Shown in pieces: positions 12,974 through 62,557 of a stretch of DNA of 64,000 nucleotides. The notes beneath the pieces are model-generated. The model was not told the DNA's origin. It searched no databases and worked only from the letters and a program-made list of their open reading frames with translations. Location of the stretch: sequence record NC_018859.1. One strand, given 5' to 3'. Both the position numbers and the translations under genes were made by a program. Source of the stretch: Escherichia phage ECBP2. The stretch's first letter is position 1, and the number at the start of each line of letters is the position of its first letter.

Positions 12974-12982
12974 TAATGTATA
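12974..12982 (+). promoter_or_regulatory. TAATGTATA motif (candidate phage-sigma-dependent middle/late promoter)
   Basis: Exact TAATGTATA lies 37 nt upstream of the ATG at 13019, in one of the few intergenic gaps of the plus block. The same 9-mer recurs at other gene-array boundaries. Confidence 0.5.
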
Positions 12983-48812: not shown

Positions 48813-50033
48813 CTATTTATTGAAGAATAATTTTTCCAAAATGTTTTCCCACTCTTCTGAGGGACGTACTGTATAATTACTACCTGTCAGTCCATTGGAC
48901 ATACTACTGATAATGTTATACATGTTGTAGCTTCGAGCTGAAGCTGTTTCATTGTTCCAGTTATAACCGAACACAATTTTAGCAAAAGATGTTTCAGATT
49001 CAGCCACCTCTCGGATAAATTCAACCAAGAGTGACTTTTCTGTGATGATTGGGCGGGTATCTTCCGACAGATGGCAATATTGAGGCAAAAGGATTGGCAA
49101 GAACATCGAGTTGTTCACTCGACAATCACGAACACCTTCACTGCGATAGATCAGACTGGAGAAGTCTTCATCACGCAGGTGGCCTTCACCTTCAGTGTAT
49201 TCACACTGTCGCCATTTGGTCTGGCGAGGCTCAATCATCGTACTACCAACACCCACTGTATACAGAGATGCTTGGAAGATACAGGAATCGTAATCATTCC
49301 CTGTTAAAGCAACACGTTCGTTACCGAATACATTCACTGAAGAGTTGATCAGTCGGCTGAATGCAAGAGAGGCTAAAGGAGACCAGCCCTTCTTATACAT
49401 CTTGTTCAACATTTCATACACAGCAGATTTTTCATCATCTGTATAGAATGTGCGATTCAACATCAGATAGAACAGAGCACGATCAGCGGGACAGCCATCA
49501 GTGCAAACACCCATGAACCCCACTTCATGCCACACCAGACATGAGTCAGAGTCTTTGTCCATAAATGCTGCAAAGGTTTCCATAACAACACGATCAGTGA
49601 TGTCAGGACGGTTGTTTTCTTCTGCCCATGTTTCCACATGAGAAGGAGGACGAGGGTCTTCATTTTCTAACCCTTCACGGAAATACTGAGTAGCGATATA
49701 TTCAGTATCACCATAACGTCTTACACCGTGAGCTGGAAGATGTGTTCCGGAGTTCCAGATATACTTGATTTCAGACATAGGCAACATATTCTCAAGAACG
49801 TTCTCTTCAGCAGTGCCTTGACGAACCATCATATTTTTACTCCACACCTTGATGCGGATATTCCAGCCGTAGTTGCTGTCATACGTGTTGTAGTAGTCAG
49901 GATCATCGTCTTCATCATCTTCATCATAATCACCACCCTGATAGTAACCTGCTTTAAGGAAACCATAACAAGGAGGCCAGACGGTTACAACATCTTCTGA
50001 TTCTTTCCAGCTTTGAAGTGTTACAGGGAACAT
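48813..50033 (-). CDS. Hypothetical protein of the amidoligase block
   Basis: 406 aa with an acidic DEDDEDDDPD tract. SD AAGAGGT. Confidence 0.5.
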   Translation of the reverse strand: MFPVTLQSWKESEDVVTVWPPCYGFLKAGYYQGGDYDEDDEDDDPDYYNTYDSNYGWNIRIKVWSKNMMVRQGTAEENVLENMLPMSEIKYIWNSGTHLPAHGVRRYGDTEYIATQYFREGLENEDPRPPSHVETWAEENNRPDITDRVVMETFAAFMDKDSDSCLVWHEVGFMGVCTDGCPADRALFYLMLNRTFYTDDEKSAVYEMLNKMYKKGWSPLASLAFSRLINSSVNVFGNERVALTGNDYDSCIFQASLYTVGVGSTMIEPRQTKWRQCEYTEGEGHLRDEDFSSLIYRSEGVRDCRVNNSMFLPILLPQYCHLSEDTRPIITEKSLLVEFIREVAESETSFAKIVFGYNWNNETASARSYNMYNIISSMSNGLTGSNYTVRPSEEWENILEKLFFNK

Positions 50034-50044
50034 CTTTTACCTCT

Positions 50045-50407
50045 TTACTCTGCTACCAGAAGGCCCAGAGATTTGCGAATGTAGGCAATGCTACGGAAGT
50101 TTCGGTAGTTTTCTTGGAAGCGCATTTTTTCGAATTCTGCTTCCTGAAGTTCTACCTCTGCTGCATTGTATCCTGCCACAGCCAAACTCACCACATCCTG
50201 AGGTAAGGTATTACGACGACGAATAAGATATTTATTCGCCTTTAACTTGCTTTGTGCACGAGCCATTTTGGCCTTTGCCGCCTTGATGCCATGAGCAATC
50301 CAGAGCAATTGCTGCTCCAAATCATTCTCGTCCATGCCACCCAAATCATTTGCTACTTTATGCAGCGTAGACAGGTTCACATGGCCTTTGATGGGGCGTA
50401 GGTTCAT
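50045..50407 (-). CDS. Hypothetical helical protein
   Basis: 120 aa. Confidence 0.5.
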   Translation of the reverse strand: MNLRPIKGHVNLSTLHKVANDLGGMDENDLEQQLLWIAHGIKAAKAKMARAQSKLKANKYLIRRRNTLPQDVVSLAVAGYNAAEVELQEAEFEKMRFQENYRNFRSIAYIRKSLGLLVAE

Positions 50408-50571
50408 AACTTCTCCTGTTTATCACATTGATTGGTAAGCCAGTTATAAGACCCTCTGTTGTTCTTGCTTAATTCACAAGATACAAAGGAAGTCACACGG
50501 GCAAACCCCACGGTGGCTAAGCAAATAAAGATTGCTGCCAATAAGAACTTAACTTTCAACTTATTATCCAT
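50404..50571 (-). CDS. Small membrane/secreted protein (55 aa, below ORF-track cutoff)
   Basis: SD AAGAGG. Hydrophobic segment FLLAAIFICLATVGF. The stop overlaps the next start (ATGA). Confidence 0.4.
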   Translation of the reverse strand: MDNKLKVKFLLAAIFICLATVGFARVTSFVSCELSKNNRGSYNWLTNQCDKQEKL

Positions 50572-50591
50572 ACAACCTCTTCTTTGAACTT

Positions 50592-50616
50592 AAAAAAGGA
50601 CTCTCCTAAGAGAGCC
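50592..50616 (-). terminator. Rho-independent terminator inside spacer A
   Basis: Minus strand reads GGCTCTC-TTAG-GAGAGTCC followed by TTTTTT. Confidence 0.7.
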
Positions 50617-50812
50617 AAGCTTTAAGGCCAATTAAATAGATATCACCCAATATCTGTGGATAACCTGCTCTTAAAATATTCTATCCGACGGATGTTCGAG
50701 GACTGTTCCTCTCCCTAGCATCGGCCCCATACGGGTAAGATTAAATTAAGTTTAGGTTAGTTGAGCCAGAATAGCTCACATAGCCCTCTGATACTCACAA
50801 GGGCTATAGATG
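50617..50812 (-). ncRNA. Candidate structured RNA element, copy A (homologous to 56233..56462)
   Basis: ORF-free. Begins with hairpin ATAGCCCT-12 nt-AGGGCTAT straight after a stop codon, then a TTTAAT box, then a nested stem whose base pairs covary with copy B. Ends at a terminator. Confidence 0.35.
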
Positions 50813-51064
50813 TTACTCTGTGGCTCCGTCGAAGCGTAGGATTGCTGTTGGAACAGGAATCACAACCATGTCAATCTCTAAACGGAAGAGATGGCCTGTG
50901 CTTAGCTGAACTGCTGTTACCGGTTTAGCGATACCACCAACAGATGCTGAGGGGATTCGAATAAAGAAATCCCCCGGATATTCCGTTGCACGAAATACAT
51001 CTCCCGGTGACATATCCTTTACTTGGGTAATTGATTCAGGAGGGGTTTTATTAGCAATTTGCAT
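50813..51064 (-). CDS. Small protein of the GD(V/I/F)F family (1 of 7)
   Basis: Has the shared N-terminal pattern ...(L/V)..(L/M).(P/L/A)GD(V/I/C/F)F... and a beta-rich 75-87 aa body. Confidence 0.55.
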   Translation of the reverse strand: MQIANKTPPESITQVKDMSPGDVFRATEYPGDFFIRIPSASVGGIAKPVTAVQLSTGHLFRLEIDMVVIPVPTAILRFDGATE

Positions 51065-51297
51065 TACAGACCTTTCTTAGCACGATCTTTGGCAGTTTTG
51101 CCAGTGCGGATACGGTGGGAAACATTAACCAGCTCGCCGCCTTCGACGATGGTCACGCTTTTGTTTTTCGCAATATCAAACACAGACTTCTCTGTACCAC
51201 CCAGACGAATCTGACGCGGTTCACTTTGGGTCTGAGTTGACTTGGATTCAAACTGGAACGGCTGACGGATGGCATCAATTGCGCTAACTTTAGACAT
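51064..51297 (-). CDS. Hypothetical small protein
   Basis: SD AAGGTAA. 77 aa. Confidence 0.5.
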   Translation of the reverse strand: MSKVSAIDAIRQPFQFESKSTQTQSEPRQIRLGGTEKSVFDIAKNKSVTIVEGGELVNVSHRIRTGKTAKDRAKKGL

Positions 51298-51325
51298 GTT
51301 TTTATTACCTTAAATTAAAGAGAGA

Positions 51326-51739
51326 TTAAACAACGAATTGGAACGCTTCGTATCCAAACTTGTACGAGAAACCGTGCTTGAACTTCACTACACGACCACG
51401 ATCACGGAAAGCTTTCAGACGACTGCTGAACCCAGCCATCGGCTCAGGGTCAATAGGGCTGCGAATCTTCATAGCTACAGAGTGCAGCTTGAAGCGCTTA
51501 CCAGTGCTACAGGCCATCATCACGTACTCCATACGAGTAGTCCAGATGTTAAGCACCATGCTTGTTTTCTCCGCTGACCAACCAGTCTTGCGGGCGATTT
51601 CCTTATGGATGTTAAGTTCCAAAGGAAGTGGGAATTGCTTGTTGAATGAAGCCGGATAAAGCTTGACCAGAAGATCAATGTTTTCTTTATACGTTAAGTA
51701 AGCCAATTTCTTGCTTACGTTGGGGAATTTCCCAGCCAT
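51326..51739 (-). CDS. ProQ/FinO-domain RNA chaperone-like protein
   Basis: KENIDLLVKLYPASFNKQFPLPLELNIHKEI....WSAEKTSMVLNIWTTRMEYV......GKRFKL aligns with E. coli ProQ KEVIAFLAERFPHCF...RPLKIGIFQDL...[20 protein letters not shown]...GATRVDL. Confidence 0.6.
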   Translation of the reverse strand: MAGKFPNVSKKLAYLTYKENIDLLVKLYPASFNKQFPLPLELNIHKEIARKTGWSAEKTSMVLNIWTTRMEYVMMACSTGKRFKLHSVAMKIRSPIDPEPMAGFSSRLKAFRDRGRVVKFKHGFSYKFGYEAFQFVV

Positions 51740-51807
51740 TTTTGAAGCTCCAAAACAGCGCCGAAAAGAGAGGCGTCATAGTAGCTAAAGGGAGGAGAGA
51801 AGAGGGC

Positions 51808-51937: not shown

Positions 51938-52195
51938 TCAGTAGAAGGTGTGTGTAGAGTCGTCGTTCATAGATAACCAAACGAAGAAGACAATCACACA
52001 GAAAGCAATAATACCGAGAGTTGCAAGGATTATAGTGTTAGCTAATGTGATATCTAACACTCTTTGCAGGTACATAAAGAATTGTATGATACCACATAAC
52101 CCTAGCACGACCCCAATAACAATAAGGAGCCAGTACGTGCAGAGAAGGACTGCATCCAATAGTGATACATACTTTGGATCATCTTTATGTTTCAC
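51938..52195 (-). CDS. Small membrane protein
   Basis: Two to three hydrophobic helices (LLIVIGVVLGLCGIIQFF, IILATLGIIAFCVIVFFVWL). Confidence 0.5.
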   Translation of the reverse strand: MKHKDDPKYVSLLDAVLLCTYWLLIVIGVVLGLCGIIQFFMYLQRVLDITLANTIILATLGIIAFCVIVFFVWLSMNDDSTHTFY

Positions 52196-52448
52196 TAATC
52201 TTCTCCACTAAATCCAGAGTTGCCGATTCAAATACAACACCAACTGGCATATTGGATGCCATATTACGAACATATCCACTCTGCATCGACACAGCTCGGT
52301 GGTATTCACAACCATTAGAGCTTTTGTTTACTTTCATGTAAATGGTTTGTTCTTTATCTTCTTTCAAAGTAAAGAAAGAGCCGATAGAAACACCTGCCAC
52401 CATTAGAGGAATATCCGCAATACGAGTTTTGTTAATGGTCAGAGCCAT
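52185..52448 (-). CDS. Small protein, distant GD.F family member (2 of 7)
   Basis: SD AAGGAG. IGSFFTLKED sits at the family motif position. Confidence 0.45.
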   Translation of the reverse strand: MALTINKTRIADIPLMVAGVSIGSFFTLKEDKEQTIYMKVNKSSNGCEYHRAVSMQSGYVRNMASNMPVGVVFESATLDLVEKISET

Positions 52449-52451
52449 TGC

Positions 52452-52706
52452 TTACTCCTTAATAGTTGCTTCAGCTTTGATAGGAATAACAGCAACATCT
52501 TTACGAGGCGCTGTCGCTCGGCCTGTGTTAAGACAGGCTACGAGTCTGTGCTCATCCGCACCTTTAATGCAGAGTCGAGTTGAGAACTCGGTAGACAGCA
52601 AGATGTATAAATCACCATCTTCACTGTTAGGATACATAAAGCAATCCCCAAGTCGCAAAGCACTGAGGGGTATTGAATTTTTACCTGCTGGCATGTTAAC
52701 TTTCAT
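52452..52706 (-). CDS. Small protein of the GD.F family (3 of 7)
   Basis: LSALRLGDCFMYPN motif. Confidence 0.5.
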   Translation of the reverse strand: MKVNMPAGKNSIPLSALRLGDCFMYPNSEDGDLYILLSTEFSTRLCIKGADEHRLVACLNTGRATAPRKDVAVIPIKAEATIKE

Positions 52707-53013: not shown

Positions 53014-53231
53014 AAATAGGGGGAGGGGACGAATCCTCCCATATCCTATTAATTAATGTTGCATGTAAGACCTAACAATCCGATGCTGTAGTGGATAGCG
53101 TAAAACGCTTACCGGCATTAAACCCAGCCCATGAGGGGCTTATGTGATTAAAATGCTCAACATTGAGCGGTTAGTTGATAGGAGATCTGAAGTCCTATCT
53201 CAAAGGACTCTCGTAAGAATCCTTCACGATA

Positions 53232-54178: not shown

Positions 54179-54294
54179 ATACCCTCCTACGTTGATTGGT
54201 AGCCCCAAGATGCCGTATCTTATCCAACGACCCCATACAGACCTATAGGCTATTGTATGGCGCCGAAGGAGTACGCAAGCATCTTAGGGACATA
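54179..54294 (-). ncRNA. Candidate structured RNA immediately 3' of tRNA-Arg
   Basis: An 11-bp long-range stem CCCUAAGAUGC/GCAUCUUGGGG encloses a 7-bp hairpin CCAUACA...UGUAUGG. It shares GUAUGGGG(U/C)CG with spacer A. Confidence 0.3.
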
Positions 54295-54370
54295 TGGTGC
54301 ACCCTACAGGATTCGAACCTGTAACCAACGACTTAGAAGGTCGCTGCTCTATCCATTGAGCTAAGGGTGC
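54295..54370 (-). tRNA. tRNA-Arg(UCU): tRNA-Arg, anticodon UCU, CCA encoded
   Basis: Minus strand folds as a 76 nt cloverleaf: GCACCCT TA GCTC AATGGATA GAGC A GCGAC CTTCTAA GTCGT TGGTT ACAGG TTCGAAT CCTGT AGGGTGC ACCA. Confidence 0.9.
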
Positions 54371-54379
54371 TTGAATTGT

Positions 54380-55246: not shown

Positions 55247-55504
55247 TTAAACACACGCCGGTAGTTCAATTAACTGAGGAGCACGACAAGGACCATCTTC
55301 ATACACACCAACCAACGTTGGCATGTAAGGCCCAGCGCACTGGTATTCGTCGAACAGTTCGTTATAGTTAGGCTTCCACTTCCAAGCCCACACATAACCC
55401 ATTCGATCAATGGCAATGTAACGAGTGTTCAGAGGAACCTGCATCATCACATCACCAACTGCTATTACTTTCGTAATAACTGCTGCTCGGAAATTTGTCT
55501 TCAT
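55247..55504 (-). CDS. Hypothetical small protein
   Basis: 85 aa. Confidence 0.5.
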   Translation of the reverse strand: MKTNFRAAVITKVIAVGDVMMQVPLNTRYIAIDRMGYVWAWKWKPNYNELFDEYQCAGPYMPTLVGVYEDGPCRAPQLIELPACV

Positions 55505-55752
55505 GGCGCTTTAATCTCAATCTGAACATTGACAACAAATACAGTATGGTTTGCACTGTACACCGAAGTGCCTATGATTGGCTTGTCATCACTGAGGATT
55601 TCAACAGCGTGTTCAAGGTTGATCTTCAGATGAAGACGCCCTGATTCCATGAAGAAATCACCAGCACGTATCTCACCGAACTTGGCTGGCACACCGATAG
55701 AGGGTATCAGTATGTCAGTGCGACCTTTACGGTCAAATAAACGATTAAACAT
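55501..55752 (-). CDS. Small protein of the GD.F family (4 of 7)
   Basis: FGEIRAGDFFMESG motif. SD AGAGAGG. Confidence 0.5.
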   Translation of the reverse strand: MFNRLFDRKGRTDILIPSIGVPAKFGEIRAGDFFMESGRLHLKINLEHAVEILSDDKPIIGTSVYSANHTVFVVNVQIEIKAP

Positions 55753-56159: not shown

Positions 56160-56197
56160 AACGTTCTCTCTTTGTTAATGGAGGCAGGATTGCCAGT

Positions 56198-56232
56198 TAA
56201 TATAAAGGGAAGCCCTACACGTTAAGGCTTCC
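56198..56232 (-). terminator. Terminator-like hairpin inside spacer B
   Basis: Minus strand reads GGAAGCC-11 nt-GGCTTCC followed by CTTTATATT. Confidence 0.5.
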
Positions 56233-56462
56233 GCTTGTACAAACTGTCGAGAACTCTCTACCCCTAGATTGTTCTCTATCCCAAACCGATACATACCCCT
56301 ACATATCGGAATGCCATTCGAAAATTAAACAGGTTTTAGTCTATCACCGGATGTTTGAGACAAGTCTCGCCCTAGCGGTGAGCCATATGGCATTGAGATT
56401 ATAGTTAATTGAGGAACATCCTCACATAGCCCTCTGATAAACACAAGGGCTATAAGTCGATG
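56233..56462 (-). ncRNA. Candidate structured RNA element, copy B (homologous to 50617..50812)
   Basis: Same order of parts as copy A: post-stop hairpin ATAGCCCT/AGGGCTAT, TATAAT box, covarying nested stem. It has two further hairpins with UAGGGGUA loops, then a terminator-like hairpin. Confidence 0.35.
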
Positions 56463-56687
56463 TTACTTATTAGTTAGTCGAACGTTAGGCACAAGTTTAA
56501 CTGCTGCTGTTTTCATCTCTCCAATGACCTTACCGGTAGAGAGATTAACAAAATAAGCAGTGACTTCACCACCACAAGCTGTACGCATATAATAACTGCT
56601 TCCAGTTCTGTCAAACTGAAAAACGTCTCCCGGCTTTACATCACCAAGAGTTGTGACGCTTTGCTTTTTATCAATATCAATCTTCAT
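56463..56687 (-). CDS. Small protein of the GD.F family (5 of 7)
   Basis: LGDVKPGDVFQFD motif. Confidence 0.55.
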   Translation of the reverse strand: MKIDIDKKQSVTTLGDVKPGDVFQFDRTGSSYYMRTACGGEVTAYFVNLSTGKVIGEMKTAAVKLVPNVRLTNK

Positions 56688-56918
56688 TTAACCACCAATA
56701 TTCGTTACTTGTACATTAGGTACAGAGATAACTTCATGATCTTCAGGTATCTGGAACAAAGTCCCCTGACCAAGACCAACGACACGGCGCATACCCTGCA
56801 CATAGGTGTCTGTCTTTAGGTAGAGGTGTTCAGTGTTATTTTGTAATCGGAATACGTCACCCGGACGTAGATCGCTGAGCTTTTTAGTAACAACTAAAGA
56901 TGGGAGATTAATTTTCAT
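56688..56918 (-). CDS. Small protein of the GD.F family (6 of 7)
   Basis: LSDLRPGDVFRLQ motif. Confidence 0.55.
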   Translation of the reverse strand: MKINLPSLVVTKKLSDLRPGDVFRLQNNTEHLYLKTDTYVQGMRRVVGLGQGTLFQIPEDHEVISVPNVQVTNIGG

Positions 56919-57157
56919 TACTTACTCTCGATAGCAATTTTGTATTCATACTTAGAGACTTCAGCGTCCGCAGAAACCTTAAGTATATCAGAGGTGTTGT
57001 TTAATTGCATTGCCGATGAATATTGAGATGATACCTTCATCCAGAAAAAGGTGTCACCATCGGGGTTTTGAAACTTGAAGATGTCCCCATTAGAGAGGTC
57101 ACCGAAAGTTAACTTATTTTGTTTAGGCTTGGGGATGATTTCGAAATTCATTTTCAT
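56918..57157 (-). CDS. Small protein of the GD.F family (7 of 7)
   Basis: FGDLSNGDIFKFQ motif. Confidence 0.55.
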   Translation of the reverse strand: MKMNFEIIPKPKQNKLTFGDLSNGDIFKFQNPDGDTFFWMKVSSQYSSAMQLNNTSDILKVSADAEVSKYEYKIAIESK

Positions 57158-57619: not shown

Positions 57620-57820
57620 ATCTTTATCCTCTTAAAGTAAGATATTATAAGAAATATTATTTAGAATTTATTATTTCTAAACTTAATTTCTATCAATAAT
57701 TTTCAGAGGTCTATATACAGTCATTACCTCTGGTTCCGAATCACTACCACTTTTTGCAGAGAAAATCATAAGTAGGTGATTTATAAAGGAATTTAGTTTG
57801 CCAATCTTGGCACCTATGAA

Positions 57821-58207: not shown

Positions 58208-58258
58208 AAGTAGCTGGGCTGTCGTTATCAGAACTTACTACCCCCTTGTTTTACGGGC

Positions 58259-58286
58259 ATAAAAAAGCCCCATCCGAAGACGGGGC
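58259..58286 (-). terminator. Strong rho-independent terminator
   Basis: Minus strand reads GCCCCGTC-TTCG-GATGGGGC followed by TTTTTTAT. Confidence 0.8.
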
Positions 58287-58339
58287 GACCTGAAAGAGTG
58301 AACATGACCTCACTCATTTAAGAATCCTCGCAAAGACTC

Positions 58340-58495
58340 TTAAAAAAGCGGCCTCGTTAAAGGCCCGGTCAAATGACCATCCAATAGGGATTGAACCATG
58401 CCAATGATTCACAAAGGGAGTTCCCTTTAGGCATCACTAGCTACGCAAAAAGCCGCACAAAGGCGGCAGACACAAAGACGCTCAAGAAGAGCGTC
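58340..58495 (-). terminator. Cluster of three further terminator-like hairpins
   Basis: Minus strand has three hairpins: GACGCTC-TTCTT-GAGCGTC + TTTGTGT; GCCGC-CTTTGT-GCGGC + TTTTTG; GGCCT-TTAACG-AGGCC + GCTTTTTT. Confidence 0.5.
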
Positions 58496-58527
58496 ATAGT
58501 AGTTGACTACTGGTACAGAGAAGAGGC

Positions 58528-60763: not shown

Positions 60764-60840
60764 ACTTATCAATATCCACTCATTGTTAAGTAATTATTGA
60801 TAAGTGGGGCGGTCTTATCAGAAGTTAACCTTGCCGCCCC
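60764..60840. promoter_or_regulatory. Perfect 11-bp inverted repeat (ACTTATCAATA / TATTGATAAGT, 20-bp spacer) abutting a 7-bp GC stem (GGGGCGG / CCGCCCC)
   Basis: Read directly: arms at 60764-60774 and 60795-60805, GC stem at 60806-60812 and 60834-60840. Lies 70-140 nt upstream of the ATG at 60697. Confidence 0.4.
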
Positions 60841-61618
60841 TTTATCTGTGATGTTTCATCTGGTATCTTTAATTAGTCGCTATAAACGAAGCCGACCTGA
60901 TAGCGATGATCAATCATCACAATAAGGCAGTGCGTCCGACTCTAATTAGTTACTTTATTGTAACCGTCGGCAATATCGTCTACTTTGCTTTCGCTCTCGC
61001 CTATCCTTTTATACTAACTCTCAATCGCTAACCATCGCCCACTACGGGAGGTTATTGCGAAAGAGTCATTAGCCGTCTAATATTCCGACGTTTTATATCT
61101 TTCGGCAAGTTTACTACATAACCCGACTATGTACTTTCATCTTATGATGAATCTCAAGCCGTTCACATCGTAAACGTTCACACTAAACCTTATTGTTAAA
61201 TAGCAATTTGCCACTTTTTAACCACTCCCCGCCGCTCTCAATTGAGCGTTAATTCGTCGGACTTGCCTACCCTGATTAACTTCTTTCACTGTAGCACCAT
61301 GTTAGCGATGGCCGCCGCTACCCTTAACCGTGGGCGATTAGCTTAAGCCTTTGCGTGTACTCAATGAATCCGTTTATCAGTGGTGACTTTTCCAGTAAGG
61401 GAATGTAAAACTGTTTACCCTGATATTTTAGGGAGTTTTACGCCGTTTTATCTGGTATGCTGTCCGATGGTTATTATCTTCCAGCATATTTAACCGATAT
61501 AGGAGAATGTTTAAATTGTTAAAGAGCGGTAAATCTATCAACGTGCTTTCTCACGTTATGCAACTGTTAGCCGTTGTTACGCTTTTCACTGAAGCGGTGA
61601 TTTGCTCAAGTGATGCTC

Positions 61619-61647
61619 ATTATGGACCATGTTGTTTTTGCCGTCAA
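61619..61647 (-). promoter_or_regulatory. Sigma70-type promoter P2 with A-tract UP element
   Basis: Minus strand reads GAAAAAGATTAAAAAAGTGA TTGACG -17 nt- CATAAT GAGCAT. Confidence 0.65.
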
Positions 61648-61921
61648 TCACTTTTTTAATCTTTTTCGTCGTTCCCGCTATTGGGAGGATATATCAACCC
61701 GCTTTATTGGGTTGAAGATTAAGCGATGAGGCTTAACCCATGATTCATATTGTTAAAGAGCGTTTAGCCTTTTATAGTGTCTGCTAATCACTACATCATT
61801 AAAGGCTTACTTGTTCATTAACGGGGCGCCTAAGCCCGAACTACCCGCTGCACTATGTGCCACCTTTCCCGCGATACGTTGATTTGGGAACTAGTTAACG
61901 TTGTTTTGTTAACTTGTGGTT

Positions 61922-61950
61922 AGTATGGACTACCTTAACCACGTTTGCAA
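61922..61950 (-). promoter_or_regulatory. Sigma70-type promoter P3 with A-tract UP element
   Basis: Minus strand reads GATGATAAAAAAGAGG TTGCAA -17 nt- CATACT. Confidence 0.55.
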
Positions 61951-62250
61951 CCTCTTTTTTATCATCTTCTTTTATTCTTTTCCCTTATCTCGCGTGAATC
62001 TATGCGAAAGGGCAAGATGATAAGTCTGATTTGTCTTTTAGGAATCTAGTGCGCTTTCAAGCATTGACCATTTGAAAGTATCGAACAAATGAGGCTTATT
62101 TTGTTGCTCATCGTCCGCATGTTCACGTATGAATCAGGAATCAATTCTAGTGGTCAACTAAGCGCCTTATAGTAATGACGTTCCCGCCACCTGTAAGACA
62201 AATCATATTTTTAAAGAGCGGGATTTTTCAAGTCATCGCTGACTATGCTC

Positions 62251-62279
62251 ACTATATATCAGGCTTTTTCCGGTGTCAA
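62251..62279 (-). promoter_or_regulatory. Sigma70-type promoter P1 with A-tract UP element
   Basis: Minus strand reads GAAAATACTTGAAAAAGAGTA TTGACA -17 nt- TATAGT GAGCAT. Confidence 0.7.
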
Positions 62280-62376
62280 TACTCTTTTTCAAGTATTTTC
62301 ACTTTCTAGCCTGATTTTTAAAGAGCGGGGCAATTTCTTGCCTTGTATGTTTTACATCGTACCCGATGAAATGAAG

Positions 62377-62385
62377 TATACATTA
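62377..62385 (-). promoter_or_regulatory. TAATGTATA motif inside the ORF-free region
   Basis: Minus strand reads GATTAATGTATACTTC. Confidence 0.4.
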
Positions 62386-62557
62386 ATCAGATGAGGTTGC
62401 AATAGGGTAAAGCAAATTATTTTAAACTTTTTCACTATAGGGAGGTAAAAGAGCGGGCGCACGTGATACATCATAGGAAACGGCTTGTAAAGCGATAAAA
62501 AGCGGCCTGAAACGCACTGTAGCGAGCTAAAAGGGAGTAAGGTATACAATCACCTTA

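What the first reader, a model, noticed from the sequence alone, without database searches (positions are those of the whole stretch)
51326..51739. Phage-encoded ProQ/FinO-domain protein sitting among the structured spacers
Residues 20-95 of the 137 aa product align with the FinO domain of E. coli ProQ. The aligned blocks are L..(F/Y)P..F, PL..(G/N)I, L..(Y/W)T....Y and G..R..L. FinO-domain proteins (FinO, ProQ, RocC) bind structured RNAs, typically terminator hairpins with 3' tails, and protect them or match them to targets.

This gene lies about 500 nt from spacer A. It sits within a 10-kb region that has six unusually long ORF-free spacers rich in hairpins and terminators: 50572-50812, 53014-53231, 54179-54379, 56160-56462, 57620-57820 and 58208-58527. 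A dedicated phage RNA chaperone with its own RNA clients would be a post-transcriptional host-takeover or timing module that I do not know to have been characterised in a virulent phage.
Basis: partly seen in the sequence, partly recalled or inferred. Interest (0 to 1): 0.65.

Follow-up and report, generated by a model that had tools for sequence, protein, structure and literature searches.

The report
Phage-encoded minimal FinO-domain RNA-binding protein
A small early gene of this virulent E. coli phage really does encode a FinO/ProQ-type RNA-binding domain, but automatic annotation has already flagged this phage protein family, and the nearby structured spacers are not its dedicated partners because most of them also occur in sister phages that lack the gene.

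Summary

The window is a Suseptimavirus-type phiEco32-like phage. The gene is a clean 473-bp indel relative to Kuravirus and sits in the presumed early leftward cluster.

It belongs to a phage-only clade, with no plasmid relatives. UniProt and some GenBank records already label members of this clade ProQ/FinO or "RNA chaperone". I found no experimental study of any member.

The link to the spacers is weak. One spacer holds tRNA-Arg. Three spacers are conserved in FinO-less relatives. Only part of one spacer co-occurs with the gene.

My verdict is a new member of a known kind, of moderate interest. The likely function is binding of terminator hairpin 3' ends during infection, which is untested.

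The parts
51326..51739 (-). CDS of 137 aa for a minimal FinO-domain protein. The FinO domain spans about residues 10-112. An extra C-terminal helix covers 114-128.
51748..51751 (-). Shine-Dalgarno GGAG, 8 nt upstream of the ATG.
   Evidence: Read directly from the sequence. An RBS is annotated at the equivalent place in SU7.
51752..51777 (-). Weak remnant of an intrinsic terminator: a 4-bp CGCC/GGCG stem followed by UGUUUU. It is homologous to the intact 6-bp terminator (GACGCU/AGCGUC followed by GUUUUCG) at this position in the FinO-less Kuravirus 4E8.
   Evidence: Sequences compared.
51293..51765 (.). A 473-bp segment present in Suseptimavirus-type genomes and replaced by 67 bp in Kuravirus 4E8. 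This is the gene cassette. It holds only the ORF, its RBS and the short junctions.
   Evidence: blastn of the window against L006. Homology runs 50000-51292 at 90% identity and resumes at 51766.
50590..50616 (-). Intrinsic terminator-like hairpin (GGCUCUCUUAGGAGAGUC followed by CUUUUUU) in spacer A. It is the first convincing terminator downstream of the FinO gene and so the probable 3' end of its transcript. It is also a generic candidate FinO ligand.
   Evidence: Terminator scan. A terminator is annotated at the homologous SU7 position.
58297..58527 (-). Part of the multi-hairpin spacer, with three terminator-like hairpins at 58495-58477, 58467-58452 and 58365-58350. It is found full-length only in the 20 phage records of the FinO-carrying type. 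It is context only, and no link to the protein has been shown.
   Evidence: Terminator scan. Fold of the whole spacer gives z=-5.56. blastn distribution.
   Evidence: ARAGORN. Rfam RF00005 at 73.8 bits.

Best explanation
The gene encodes a small, basic, single-domain FinO-type RNA-binding protein of a phage-specific clade.

Shown: it is a constrained gene, it is homologous to the FinO domain, and its predicted fold is the FinO fold. It keeps the invariant Tyr/Arg pocket that in RocC clamps the 3'-terminal nucleotide of a transcript ending in an intrinsic terminator.

Inferred from position: it is transcribed leftward with the presumed early, host-sigma70-dependent genes of this phiEco32-like virulent phage. 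It probably shares a transcript with seven unknown small genes and ends at the terminator in spacer A.

Inferred from the family: during infection it binds hairpin-plus-3'-tail ends of RNAs. It thereby shields them from 3'-exonucleases and polyadenylation, or modulates their pairing, as ProQ, FinO, FopA and RocC do. The most likely clients are terminator-ended phage early transcripts, host RNAs, or both, rather than one dedicated neighbouring sRNA.

It is an accessory function. The sister genus lacks the gene.
For: Homology and fold.

Pocket residues: Y72, R82, W66 and R69 are invariant in all 40 relatives, and T67 is kept. They map onto RocC Y87, R97 and T82, which bind the 3'-terminal nucleotide. 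RocC R97M costs more than 200-fold in affinity (PMC9674577). The N-cap Ser (S55 = RocC S70) is kept.

Charge: pI 10.08, with 24 Lys+Arg against 10 Asp+Glu.

Real gene: 18 synonymous vs 4 non-synonymous differences and a GGAG RBS.

Early-cluster placement: the gene is on the minus strand and lies downstream of strong sigma70-type promoters at about 62.28 and 61.65 kb. No exact phage-sigma (gp36) promoter motif TAATGTATA occurs between 50 and 60 kb. The motif and the genome layout come from PMC8948821.

Available ligands: terminator-like hairpins with U-tails are 2.6-fold enriched on the transcribed strand of this region.

Family mechanism: FinO domains bind intrinsic terminators (PMC9674577; PMC9977716).
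Against: No RNA-binding experiment exists for any member of this phage clade.

Two conserved FinO features are altered. The N-cap arginine (RocC R75, about 80% conserved; R75D costs more than 100-fold in binding) is Ser60 here, and it is Arg in only 5 of 40 relatives. The nearly invariant beta-turn Gly (RocC G52) is Asn43 here, although it is Gly in 35 of 40 relatives.

The Pfam score is only 0.3 bits above threshold for this single sequence.

The timing class is inferred from synteny and motif scans, not measured. No convincing promoter was found in the spacer just upstream of the operon.

The gene is dispensable for the phage lineage as a whole, because it is absent from Kuravirus.
Confidence: 0.6

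Rival explanations
1. The protein is a dedicated chaperone whose clients are small RNAs or structured transcripts encoded in the neighbouring long spacers. Together they form a self-contained phage post-transcriptional module, analogous to FinO-FinP or RocC-RocR.
For: The spacers are genuinely structured. The 58208-58527 spacer folds with z=-5.56 and carries four terminator-like hairpins. The 56160-56462 spacer has covariation-supported helices. The 58297-58527 segment is found full-length only in the 20 records of the FinO-carrying type (compare).
Against: Spacer A and the 53014-53231 spacer are conserved in FinO-less Kuravirus 4E8 at 90% and 77% identity. The 56160-56462 spacer is conserved in 97 records, including phiEco32 and other FinO-less genomes. 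One spacer is a tRNA gene. The FinO cassette carries no RNA gene of its own. Co-occurrence with 58297-58527 cannot be separated from shared ancestry within one genus. No promoter for a discrete sRNA was identified.
Confidence: 0.15
2. The protein is directed at the host. It competes with or mimics host ProQ, or it sequesters host sRNAs, mRNA 3' ends or RNA components of defence systems such as type III antitoxin RNAs or retron ncRNA. Either way it would rewire host RNA decay or disarm immunity early in infection.
For: The gene sits in the early cluster, which the phiEco32/7-11 literature regards as host-takeover genes (PMC8948821). It is an accessory, genus-specific and horizontally patchy gene, found in unrelated phage families of Erwinia, Salmonella, Aeromonas, Hafnia and Shewanella. 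That distribution is typical of counter-defence or takeover genes. FinO domains recognise a generic structure shared by many host RNAs.
Against: There is no direct evidence. There is no PADLOC or other defence-related match. The protein is very divergent from host ProQ, with no significant pairwise similarity, so precise mimicry of ProQ's partner set is not implied.
Confidence: 0.2
3. The FinO fold has been repurposed and no longer binds RNA 3' ends. It might act instead as a protein-binding adaptor or a DNA binder.
For: The N-cap Arg is lost across most of the clade, and Gly is replaced by Asn in the beta-turn of this protein. A clade-specific extra C-terminal helix at 114-128, predicted with high confidence, packs on the domain.
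Against: The 3'-nucleotide pocket Tyr and Arg are invariant in all 40 relatives, together with two additional invariant residues (W66, R69) on the same helix. The strongly basic pI argues for retained nucleic-acid binding. Asn is a common substitute for Gly in turns, which is general structural knowledge.
Confidence: 0.05

Closest known systems
NMB1681, the minimal ProQ of Neisseria meningitidis (PDB 3mw6)
   Different: Only about 20% identity. NMB1681 is chromosomal and a global RNA binder. The phage protein lacks the N-cap Arg and has a clade-specific C-terminal helix. Its targets are unknown.
RocC FinO domain of Legionella pneumophila, solved bound to the RocR terminator (PDB 7rgu/7rgt)
   Different: RocC R75, K71 and G52 correspond to S60, A56 and N43 here. 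RocC has a long C-terminal region and one dedicated sRNA partner that controls competence. No partner RNA is evident for the phage protein.
N-terminal FinO domain of E. coli ProQ (PDB 5nb9; PF04352)
   Same: It is the best sequence-profile match (E=2.3e-14 over profile positions 1-107). Y70 and R80 correspond to Y72 and R82.
   Different: There is no significant pairwise similarity. The phage protein has no linker and no C-terminal Tudor-like domain, and it gives no NCBIfam ProQ match. It is not a captured host proQ.
Plasmid FinO (F plasmid, PDB 1dvo) and FopA (pCol1B9)
   Different: The plasmid proteins work with a cis-antisense RNA encoded at their target locus (FinP/traJ, Inc/repZ; PMC9977716). 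No relative of the phage protein is found on 72,556 plasmids at E<=1e-3, and no antisense partner is evident.
Uncharacterised phage homologues: SU7 gp092 (UniProt A0A8F3C9D8), Salmonella phage 7-11 AEK82037 (G0X555), Erwinia phage phiEa21-4 gp115, and the Aeromonas LAh phage 'putative RNA chaperone' (PHROGs 18901 and 35316)
   Same: They belong to the same clade. SU7 gp092 is 97% identical, and the others are 28-38% identical over 50-89% of the length. Several are already labelled ProQ/FinO.
   Different: Some, such as the 7-11 type of 227-250 aa, carry an extra C-terminal domain. Their genomic neighbourhood differs: they sit next to PRPP synthetase and NAMPT genes.

Membership tests
FinO domain (Pfam PF04352, ProQ/FinO family) | Sequence match to the family profile at or above the curated threshold | tested here: met
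   27.3 bits against a gathering score of 27, E=3.7e-6. This is marginal for the single sequence. All 40 clade members match, with a best E of 1.7e-20. The clade profile hits five solved FinO-domain proteins at E 2.3e-14 to 2.7e-6.
FinO domain (Pfam PF04352, ProQ/FinO family) | Mostly alpha-helical FinO fold with a small beta-hairpin | tested here: met
FinO domain (Pfam PF04352, ProQ/FinO family) | Conserved Tyr and Arg of the 3'-terminal-nucleotide pocket (RocC Y87/R97; ProQ Y70/R80) | tested here: met
   Y72 and R82 are invariant in 40 of 40 relatives. The mapping comes from the HMM alignment and PMC9674577.
FinO domain (Pfam PF04352, ProQ/FinO family) | Nearly invariant Gly of the beta-turn that packs on the 3' ribose (RocC G52) | tested here: not met
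   This protein and its near-identical orthologue have Asn43. 35 of 40 clade members have Gly.
FinO domain (Pfam PF04352, ProQ/FinO family) | N-cap Ser/Thr at the start of the hairpin-binding helix (RocC S70) | tested here: met
   S55 here. The position is Ser or Thr in 29 of 40 relatives.
FinO domain (Pfam PF04352, ProQ/FinO family) | N-cap Arg/Lys that contacts stem phosphates (RocC R75, ProQ R58; about 80% Arg in the family) | tested here: not met
   S60 here. The position is Arg in only 5 of 40 relatives, and otherwise Ser, Gly, Asn or Ala. K58 (= RocC K73) is present.
FinO domain (Pfam PF04352, ProQ/FinO family) | Binds RNA hairpins followed by a single-stranded 3' tail | not testable with these tools
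   This needs EMSA, fluorescence polarisation or CLIP. Only indirect support is available: pI 10.08 and the conserved pocket.
ProQ proper (chromosomal gammaproteobacterial ProQ) | FinO domain plus a basic linker plus a C-terminal Tudor-like domain, with orthology to E. coli ProQ | tested here: not met
   The protein has only 137 aa. It gives no ProQ_C or other second-domain Pfam hit and no NCBIfam ProQ match.
FinO/FopA-type mobile-element repressors | Works with a cis-encoded antisense RNA at its target locus, with relatives on conjugative plasmids | tested here: inconclusive
   There are no plasmid relatives at E<=1e-3. The 473-bp cassette holds only the ORF. The only antisense-strand terminator-like hairpin, at 51719-51736, has no matching promoter. 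Absence of an antisense RNA cannot be proven without RNA-seq.
Minimal ProQ (NMB1681/Lpp1663 type) | [quoted passage not shown] | tested here: met
   97-99 of 137 residues align structurally. What remains is a disordered N-terminus of about 9 residues and one extra C-terminal helix. Global RNA binding is not testable here.

The most novel reading that the evidence does not exclude
The phage clade would be a functionally distinct FinO subfamily. It keeps the 3'-end pocket, has lost the N-cap Arg, and has its own invariant W66, R69 and E71 plus a C-terminal helix. Virulent phages would deploy it early to cap terminator 3' ends, stabilising their own early transcripts or displacing host ProQ from its regulon. 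In Suseptimavirus it might act on the genus-specific tandem-terminator array at 58297-58527. That would make it the first phage-encoded global or semi-global RNA chaperone shown to act in host takeover.
Probability: 0.2. Interest if true: 0.6.

Novelty: new member of a known kind. Interest (0 to 1): 0.35.

Why it matters
FinO/ProQ proteins are one of the three major classes of bacterial RNA chaperone. All characterised members are chromosomal or plasmid-borne, and none from a virulent phage has been studied in the literature I could search.

A phage-only clade with an intact 3'-end pocket but an altered hairpin-binding N-cap gives a natural variant for asking how FinO domains choose their RNAs. 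It would also show whether phages manipulate RNA 3'-end metabolism during takeover.

The system is tractable. Near-identical orthologues (about 96% aa identity) are present in the BASEL-collection phages Bas86, Bas87 and Bas88. FinO-less sister phages provide natural controls.

The domain assignment itself is not new, because automatic annotation already makes it. What remains to be gained is a function, not the discovery of the domain.

Tried and rejected
- The word-indexed homologue search returned only one near-identical cluster. The exhaustive phmmer search was needed to find the clade.
- phmmer of the single sequence against PDB sequences found nothing meaningful. Only the clade profile reached the FinO structures.
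- Pairwise BLASTP to E. coli ProQ was not significant. I therefore rejected the idea of a recently captured host proQ.
- Rfam found only the tRNA in the spacers, both at gathering thresholds and at E<=1. No known sRNA family is present.
- The phage-sigma promoter motif TAATGTATA has no exact match in 50-60 kb, and its 1-mismatch hits are at chance level.
- The sigma70 scan of the spacer upstream of the operon gave no convincing promoter. The operon's own promoter remains unidentified.
- NCBIfam and PADLOC gave no relevant matches, only weak ribosomal protein L31 noise.
- tblastn against plasmids gave no match.
- The afdb50 fold library was unavailable.
- All neighbouring genes in the putative operon fall in unknown-function PHROGs and gave no significant Pfam hit. 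Context therefore gives no functional hint.
- I considered and rejected the possibility that the ORF is spurious.
- I considered the plus-strand terminator-like hairpin at 51719-51736 as a FinP-like antisense RNA. No promoter was found for it, so it is most likely a chance palindrome (GGGAAATTCCC) inside codons 2-7.

Full report
**1. What is at the coordinates**

Positions 51326..51739 hold an ATG-initiated ORF of 137 aa on the minus strand. A GGAG Shine-Dalgarno lies 8 nt upstream of the ATG.

Against its orthologue in phage SU7, 18 codon differences are synonymous and 4 are non-synonymous, and 18 of 24 nucleotide differences fall at third positions. It is a real gene under purifying selection. 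The product is strongly basic, with pI 10.08, 16 Lys and 8 Arg against 3 Asp and 7 Glu.

**2. What genome this is**

The region is 92-96% identical in DNA to Escherichia phages TH34, TH43, Bas86, Bas87, Bas88, EK010 and vB_EcoP_SU7. These belong to genus Suseptimavirus, subfamily Gordonclarkvirinae, the phiEco32-like podophages.

In this group, early and middle genes run opposite to the late genes. The early cluster is the most variable part and is thought to serve host takeover (PMC8948821).

In the window, strong sigma70-type promoters on the minus strand lie upstream of the region. They are TTGACA-17-TATAGT at 62279-62251 and TTGACG-17-CATAAT at 61647-61619.

Exact copies of the phage-sigma promoter element TAATGTATA occur at 12974, 22625, 22696, 29690 and 62377. 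None occurs between 50 and 60 kb.

I therefore place the gene in the presumed early leftward cluster. This is an inference, not a measurement.

**3. Is it a FinO domain?**

Yes. The evidence is as follows.
- Pfam PF04352 (ProQ/FinO) matches residues 18-87 with E=3.7e-6 and 27.3 bits, just over the curated 27-bit threshold.
- An exhaustive phmmer search of 1.84 billion representatives found 44 relatives at E<=1e-3.
- All 40 relatives that I aligned match PF04352 on their own.
- A profile of that alignment hits every solved FinO-domain protein: E. coli ProQ-NTD 5nb9 at 2.3e-14, RocC at 1.2e-11, FinO at 5.9e-10, Lpp1663 at 8.5e-9 and NMB1681 at 2.7e-6.
- An AlphaFold2 model built on the alignment is confident, with pLDDT 91.9 and pTM 0.86.
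- The 26 best Foldseek hits in the PDB are all FinO-domain proteins.

NCBIfam has no ProQ match. This is not a captured host proQ.

**4. Functional residues**

I mapped the protein through the HMM alignment onto the RocC-RocR crystal structure paper (PMC9674577).
- The pocket that clamps the 3'-terminal nucleotide is intact. Y72 corresponds to RocC Y87 and R82 to R97, and both are invariant in 40 of 40 relatives. T67 corresponds to T82.
- The N-cap serine is kept (S55 = S70).
- Two features differ. The N-cap arginine (RocC R75; R75D costs more than 100-fold in affinity) is Ser60 here and is Arg in only 5 of 40 clade members. The nearly universal beta-turn glycine (G52) is Asn43 in this protein, although it is Gly in 35 of 40 relatives.
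- The clade has its own invariant residues, W66 and R69, and a nearly invariant E71 (38 of 40), all on the pocket helix. It also has a confidently predicted extra C-terminal helix at residues 114-128.

I read this as retained 3'-end recognition with a modified way of holding the stem. This is an inference.

**5. Distribution and prior knowledge**

tblastn against 50,697 phage records finds 20 near-identical copies (95-99% identity), all in E. coli phages of this type. It finds 53 distant copies (below 40% identity) in Erwinia (phiEa21-4-like), Salmonella (7-11-like and others), Aeromonas, Hafnia, Enterobacter and Shewanella phages.

About 87 further phiEco32-like records match the flanking DNA but lack the protein. 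There is no match on 72,556 plasmids. This is a phage-specific clade, covered by PHROGs 18901 and 35316, both of 'unknown function'.

The domain assignment is not new.
- UniProt names the SU7 orthologue and the 7-11 and Aeromonas homologues 'ProQ/FinO domain-containing protein'.
- Some GenBank records say 'ProQ/FINO family protein', 'sRNA-binding protein', 'proQ: RNA chaperone' or 'putative RNA chaperone'.
- The 2023 review of the family notes phage-encoded members in its heterogeneous branch (PMC9977716).

I found no paper that characterises any of them, and none that links Suseptimavirus or Gordonclarkvirinae with ProQ.

**6. The gene is a cassette**

Compared with Kuravirus 4E8, homology runs at 90% identity up to window position 51292 and resumes at 51766. 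The 473 bp in between, which are the ORF, its RBS and short junctions, are replaced in 4E8 by 67 bp that carry an annotated terminator. In the window only a weakened remnant of that terminator survives, at 51752-51777.

The gene is therefore accessory and came or went as a single-gene unit, without any RNA gene attached. Its seven presumptive operon partners and the downstream genes are all of unknown function.

**7. The spacers**

- ORF-free stretches of 120 nt or more occur only in the 50.5-63.8 kb part of the window.
- Terminator-like hairpins are enriched, 19 found against 7.2+-2.7 expected, and 16 of them are on the transcribed strand.
- Spacer A folds with z=-2.8 and the 58208-58527 spacer with z=-5.6.

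The proposed partnership with the FinO protein is not supported.
- 54179-54379 contains tRNA-Arg(UCU).
- Spacer A and the 53014-53231 spacer are conserved in FinO-less 4E8.
- The 56160-56462 spacer is conserved over more than 88% of its length at 79-84% identity in all phiEco32-like phages, including phiEco32 itself.
- Only 58297-58527 is confined to the 20 records of the FinO-carrying type. That cannot be separated from common descent.

**8. Most likely mechanism**

Shown: a constrained, basic, FinO-fold protein with an intact 3'-nucleotide pocket, encoded among presumed early genes.

Inferred: it binds hairpin-plus-3'-tail ends of transcripts during infection and protects or remodels them. 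ProQ, FinO, FopA and RocC do this at intrinsic terminators. Many such terminators are available on the phage's own early transcripts and in the host.

I put about 0.6 on this generic mechanism.

**9. Verdict**

This is a new, uncharacterised member of a known kind: a minimal FinO-domain protein of a phage-specific clade. It is worth an experiment, and the BASEL phages Bas86, Bas87 and Bas88 carry it. It is neither a surprise to specialists nor a new class of system.

**10. Things seen on the way**

The 56160-56462 spacer encodes a structured RNA that is conserved across the whole subfamily and has covariation support.
- RNAalifold predicts 86 pairs, and 98.9% of cells are paired.
- 14 pairs show changes on both sides, against 7.8+-1.8 in shuffles (0 of 500 shuffles reach 14) and 0-4 when the partners are slid.
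- Two adjacent hairpins both display the invariant loop UAGGGGUA. These are the only two exact copies of that 8-mer in the window.
- Its first hairpin, and further sequence blocks, recur in spacer A.
- No Rfam family matches it.

This element looks more unusual than the FinO gene itself and deserves its own follow-up.

Noticed in passing
window 56160-56462 (minus strand): This noncoding spacer is conserved over 88-100% of its length at 79-99% identity in 97 phiEco32-like phage records, and every genome inspected leaves it unannotated. A 14-genome alignment has long invariant blocks, and helices show compensatory changes: 14 pairs with changes on both sides against 7.8+-1.8 in shuffles, and 98.9% of cells paired. 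Two adjacent hairpins (about 56316-56293 and 56282-56254) both carry the invariant loop UAGGGGUA, the only two exact copies of that 8-mer in the window. No Rfam family matches. It is a candidate conserved structured RNA of the early region: an ncRNA, a long leader or a processing site.
   Followed up: partly
window 50775-50808 and 56421-56454 (minus strand): The same 34-nt hairpin (UAUAGCCCUUGUG..UAUCAGAGGGCUAUGUGAG, 94% identical between the two copies) starts both spacer A and the 56160 spacer, a few nucleotides after the stop codon of the upstream gene. It is followed by further shared blocks (GCUAGGG..GAG hairpin, AACAUCCG). It has no U-tail. It could be an RNase III/E-type processing site, an operator palindrome or a repeated RNA module.
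   Followed up: partly
window 58208-58527 (minus strand): This is a chain of about 8 hairpins, and four of them are terminator-like with U-tails (58495-58477, 58467-58452, 58365-58350, 58286-58267). The MFE is -118 kcal/mol with z=-5.56. Only the last 89 nt, including the strongest terminator, are shared with Kuravirus. The rest is specific to the 20 Suseptimavirus-type records. It could be a tandem terminator array or a set of small RNAs.
   Followed up: partly
window 60794-62351 and 62250-62390 (minus strand): This is about 1.5 kb without any ORF of 60 aa or more, lying just downstream of strong sigma70-type promoters: TTGACA-17-TATAGT at 62279-62251 and TTGACG-17-CATAAT at 61647-61619. An exact phage-sigma element TAATGTATA lies at 62377-62385. 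The box CCGCTCTTTAA(A/C)AAT is repeated at 61511, 61745 and 62203 on plus-strand coordinates. It looks like the early promoter/leader region and may produce long noncoding early transcripts.
   Followed up: no
window 50813-51064, 52185-52448, 52452-52706, 55501-55752, 56463-56687, 56688-56918, 56918-57157 (minus strand): At least seven paralogous early proteins of about 75-87 aa share a 'GD(V/F/C/I)F ... Y(L/M)K' motif. Of the three I scanned, two hit phrog_7832 and two hit phrog_12612, all of unknown function. The other four were grouped by eye from the shared motif. They form an expanded small-protein family that flanks the structured spacers.
   Followed up: no
L007 (Salmonella phage 7-11) 3483-7351; L003 6001-9197; L002 205-1518: In unrelated phages the FinO-clade gene repeatedly lies immediately upstream of, or within about 1 kb of, a ribose-phosphate pyrophosphokinase gene; in L003 and phage 7-11 a nicotinamide phosphoribosyltransferase (NAD+ salvage) gene follows it, whereas the 1.6-kb L002 contig ends before one could be seen. 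The 227-250-aa versions (7-11 type) add a conserved C-terminal domain with the motif GNHPFRDG...HTS.VV, loosely comparable to ProQ's extra C-terminal domain.
   Followed up: no
window 51719-51736: The near-palindrome GGGAAATTCCC lies in codons 2-7 of the FinO gene. It scores as a terminator-like hairpin on the antisense (plus) strand and would also fold in the mRNA right after the AUG. A similar GGGAATTCCC hairpin sits in the 67-bp junction of FinO-less phage 4E8. It is probably chance or a recombination scar.
   Followed up: no
window 54295-54370 (minus strand): A tRNA-Arg (anticodon UCU, reading AGA) is embedded in the early gene cluster. It is conserved in SU7 and in Kuravirus 4E8.
   Followed up: yes
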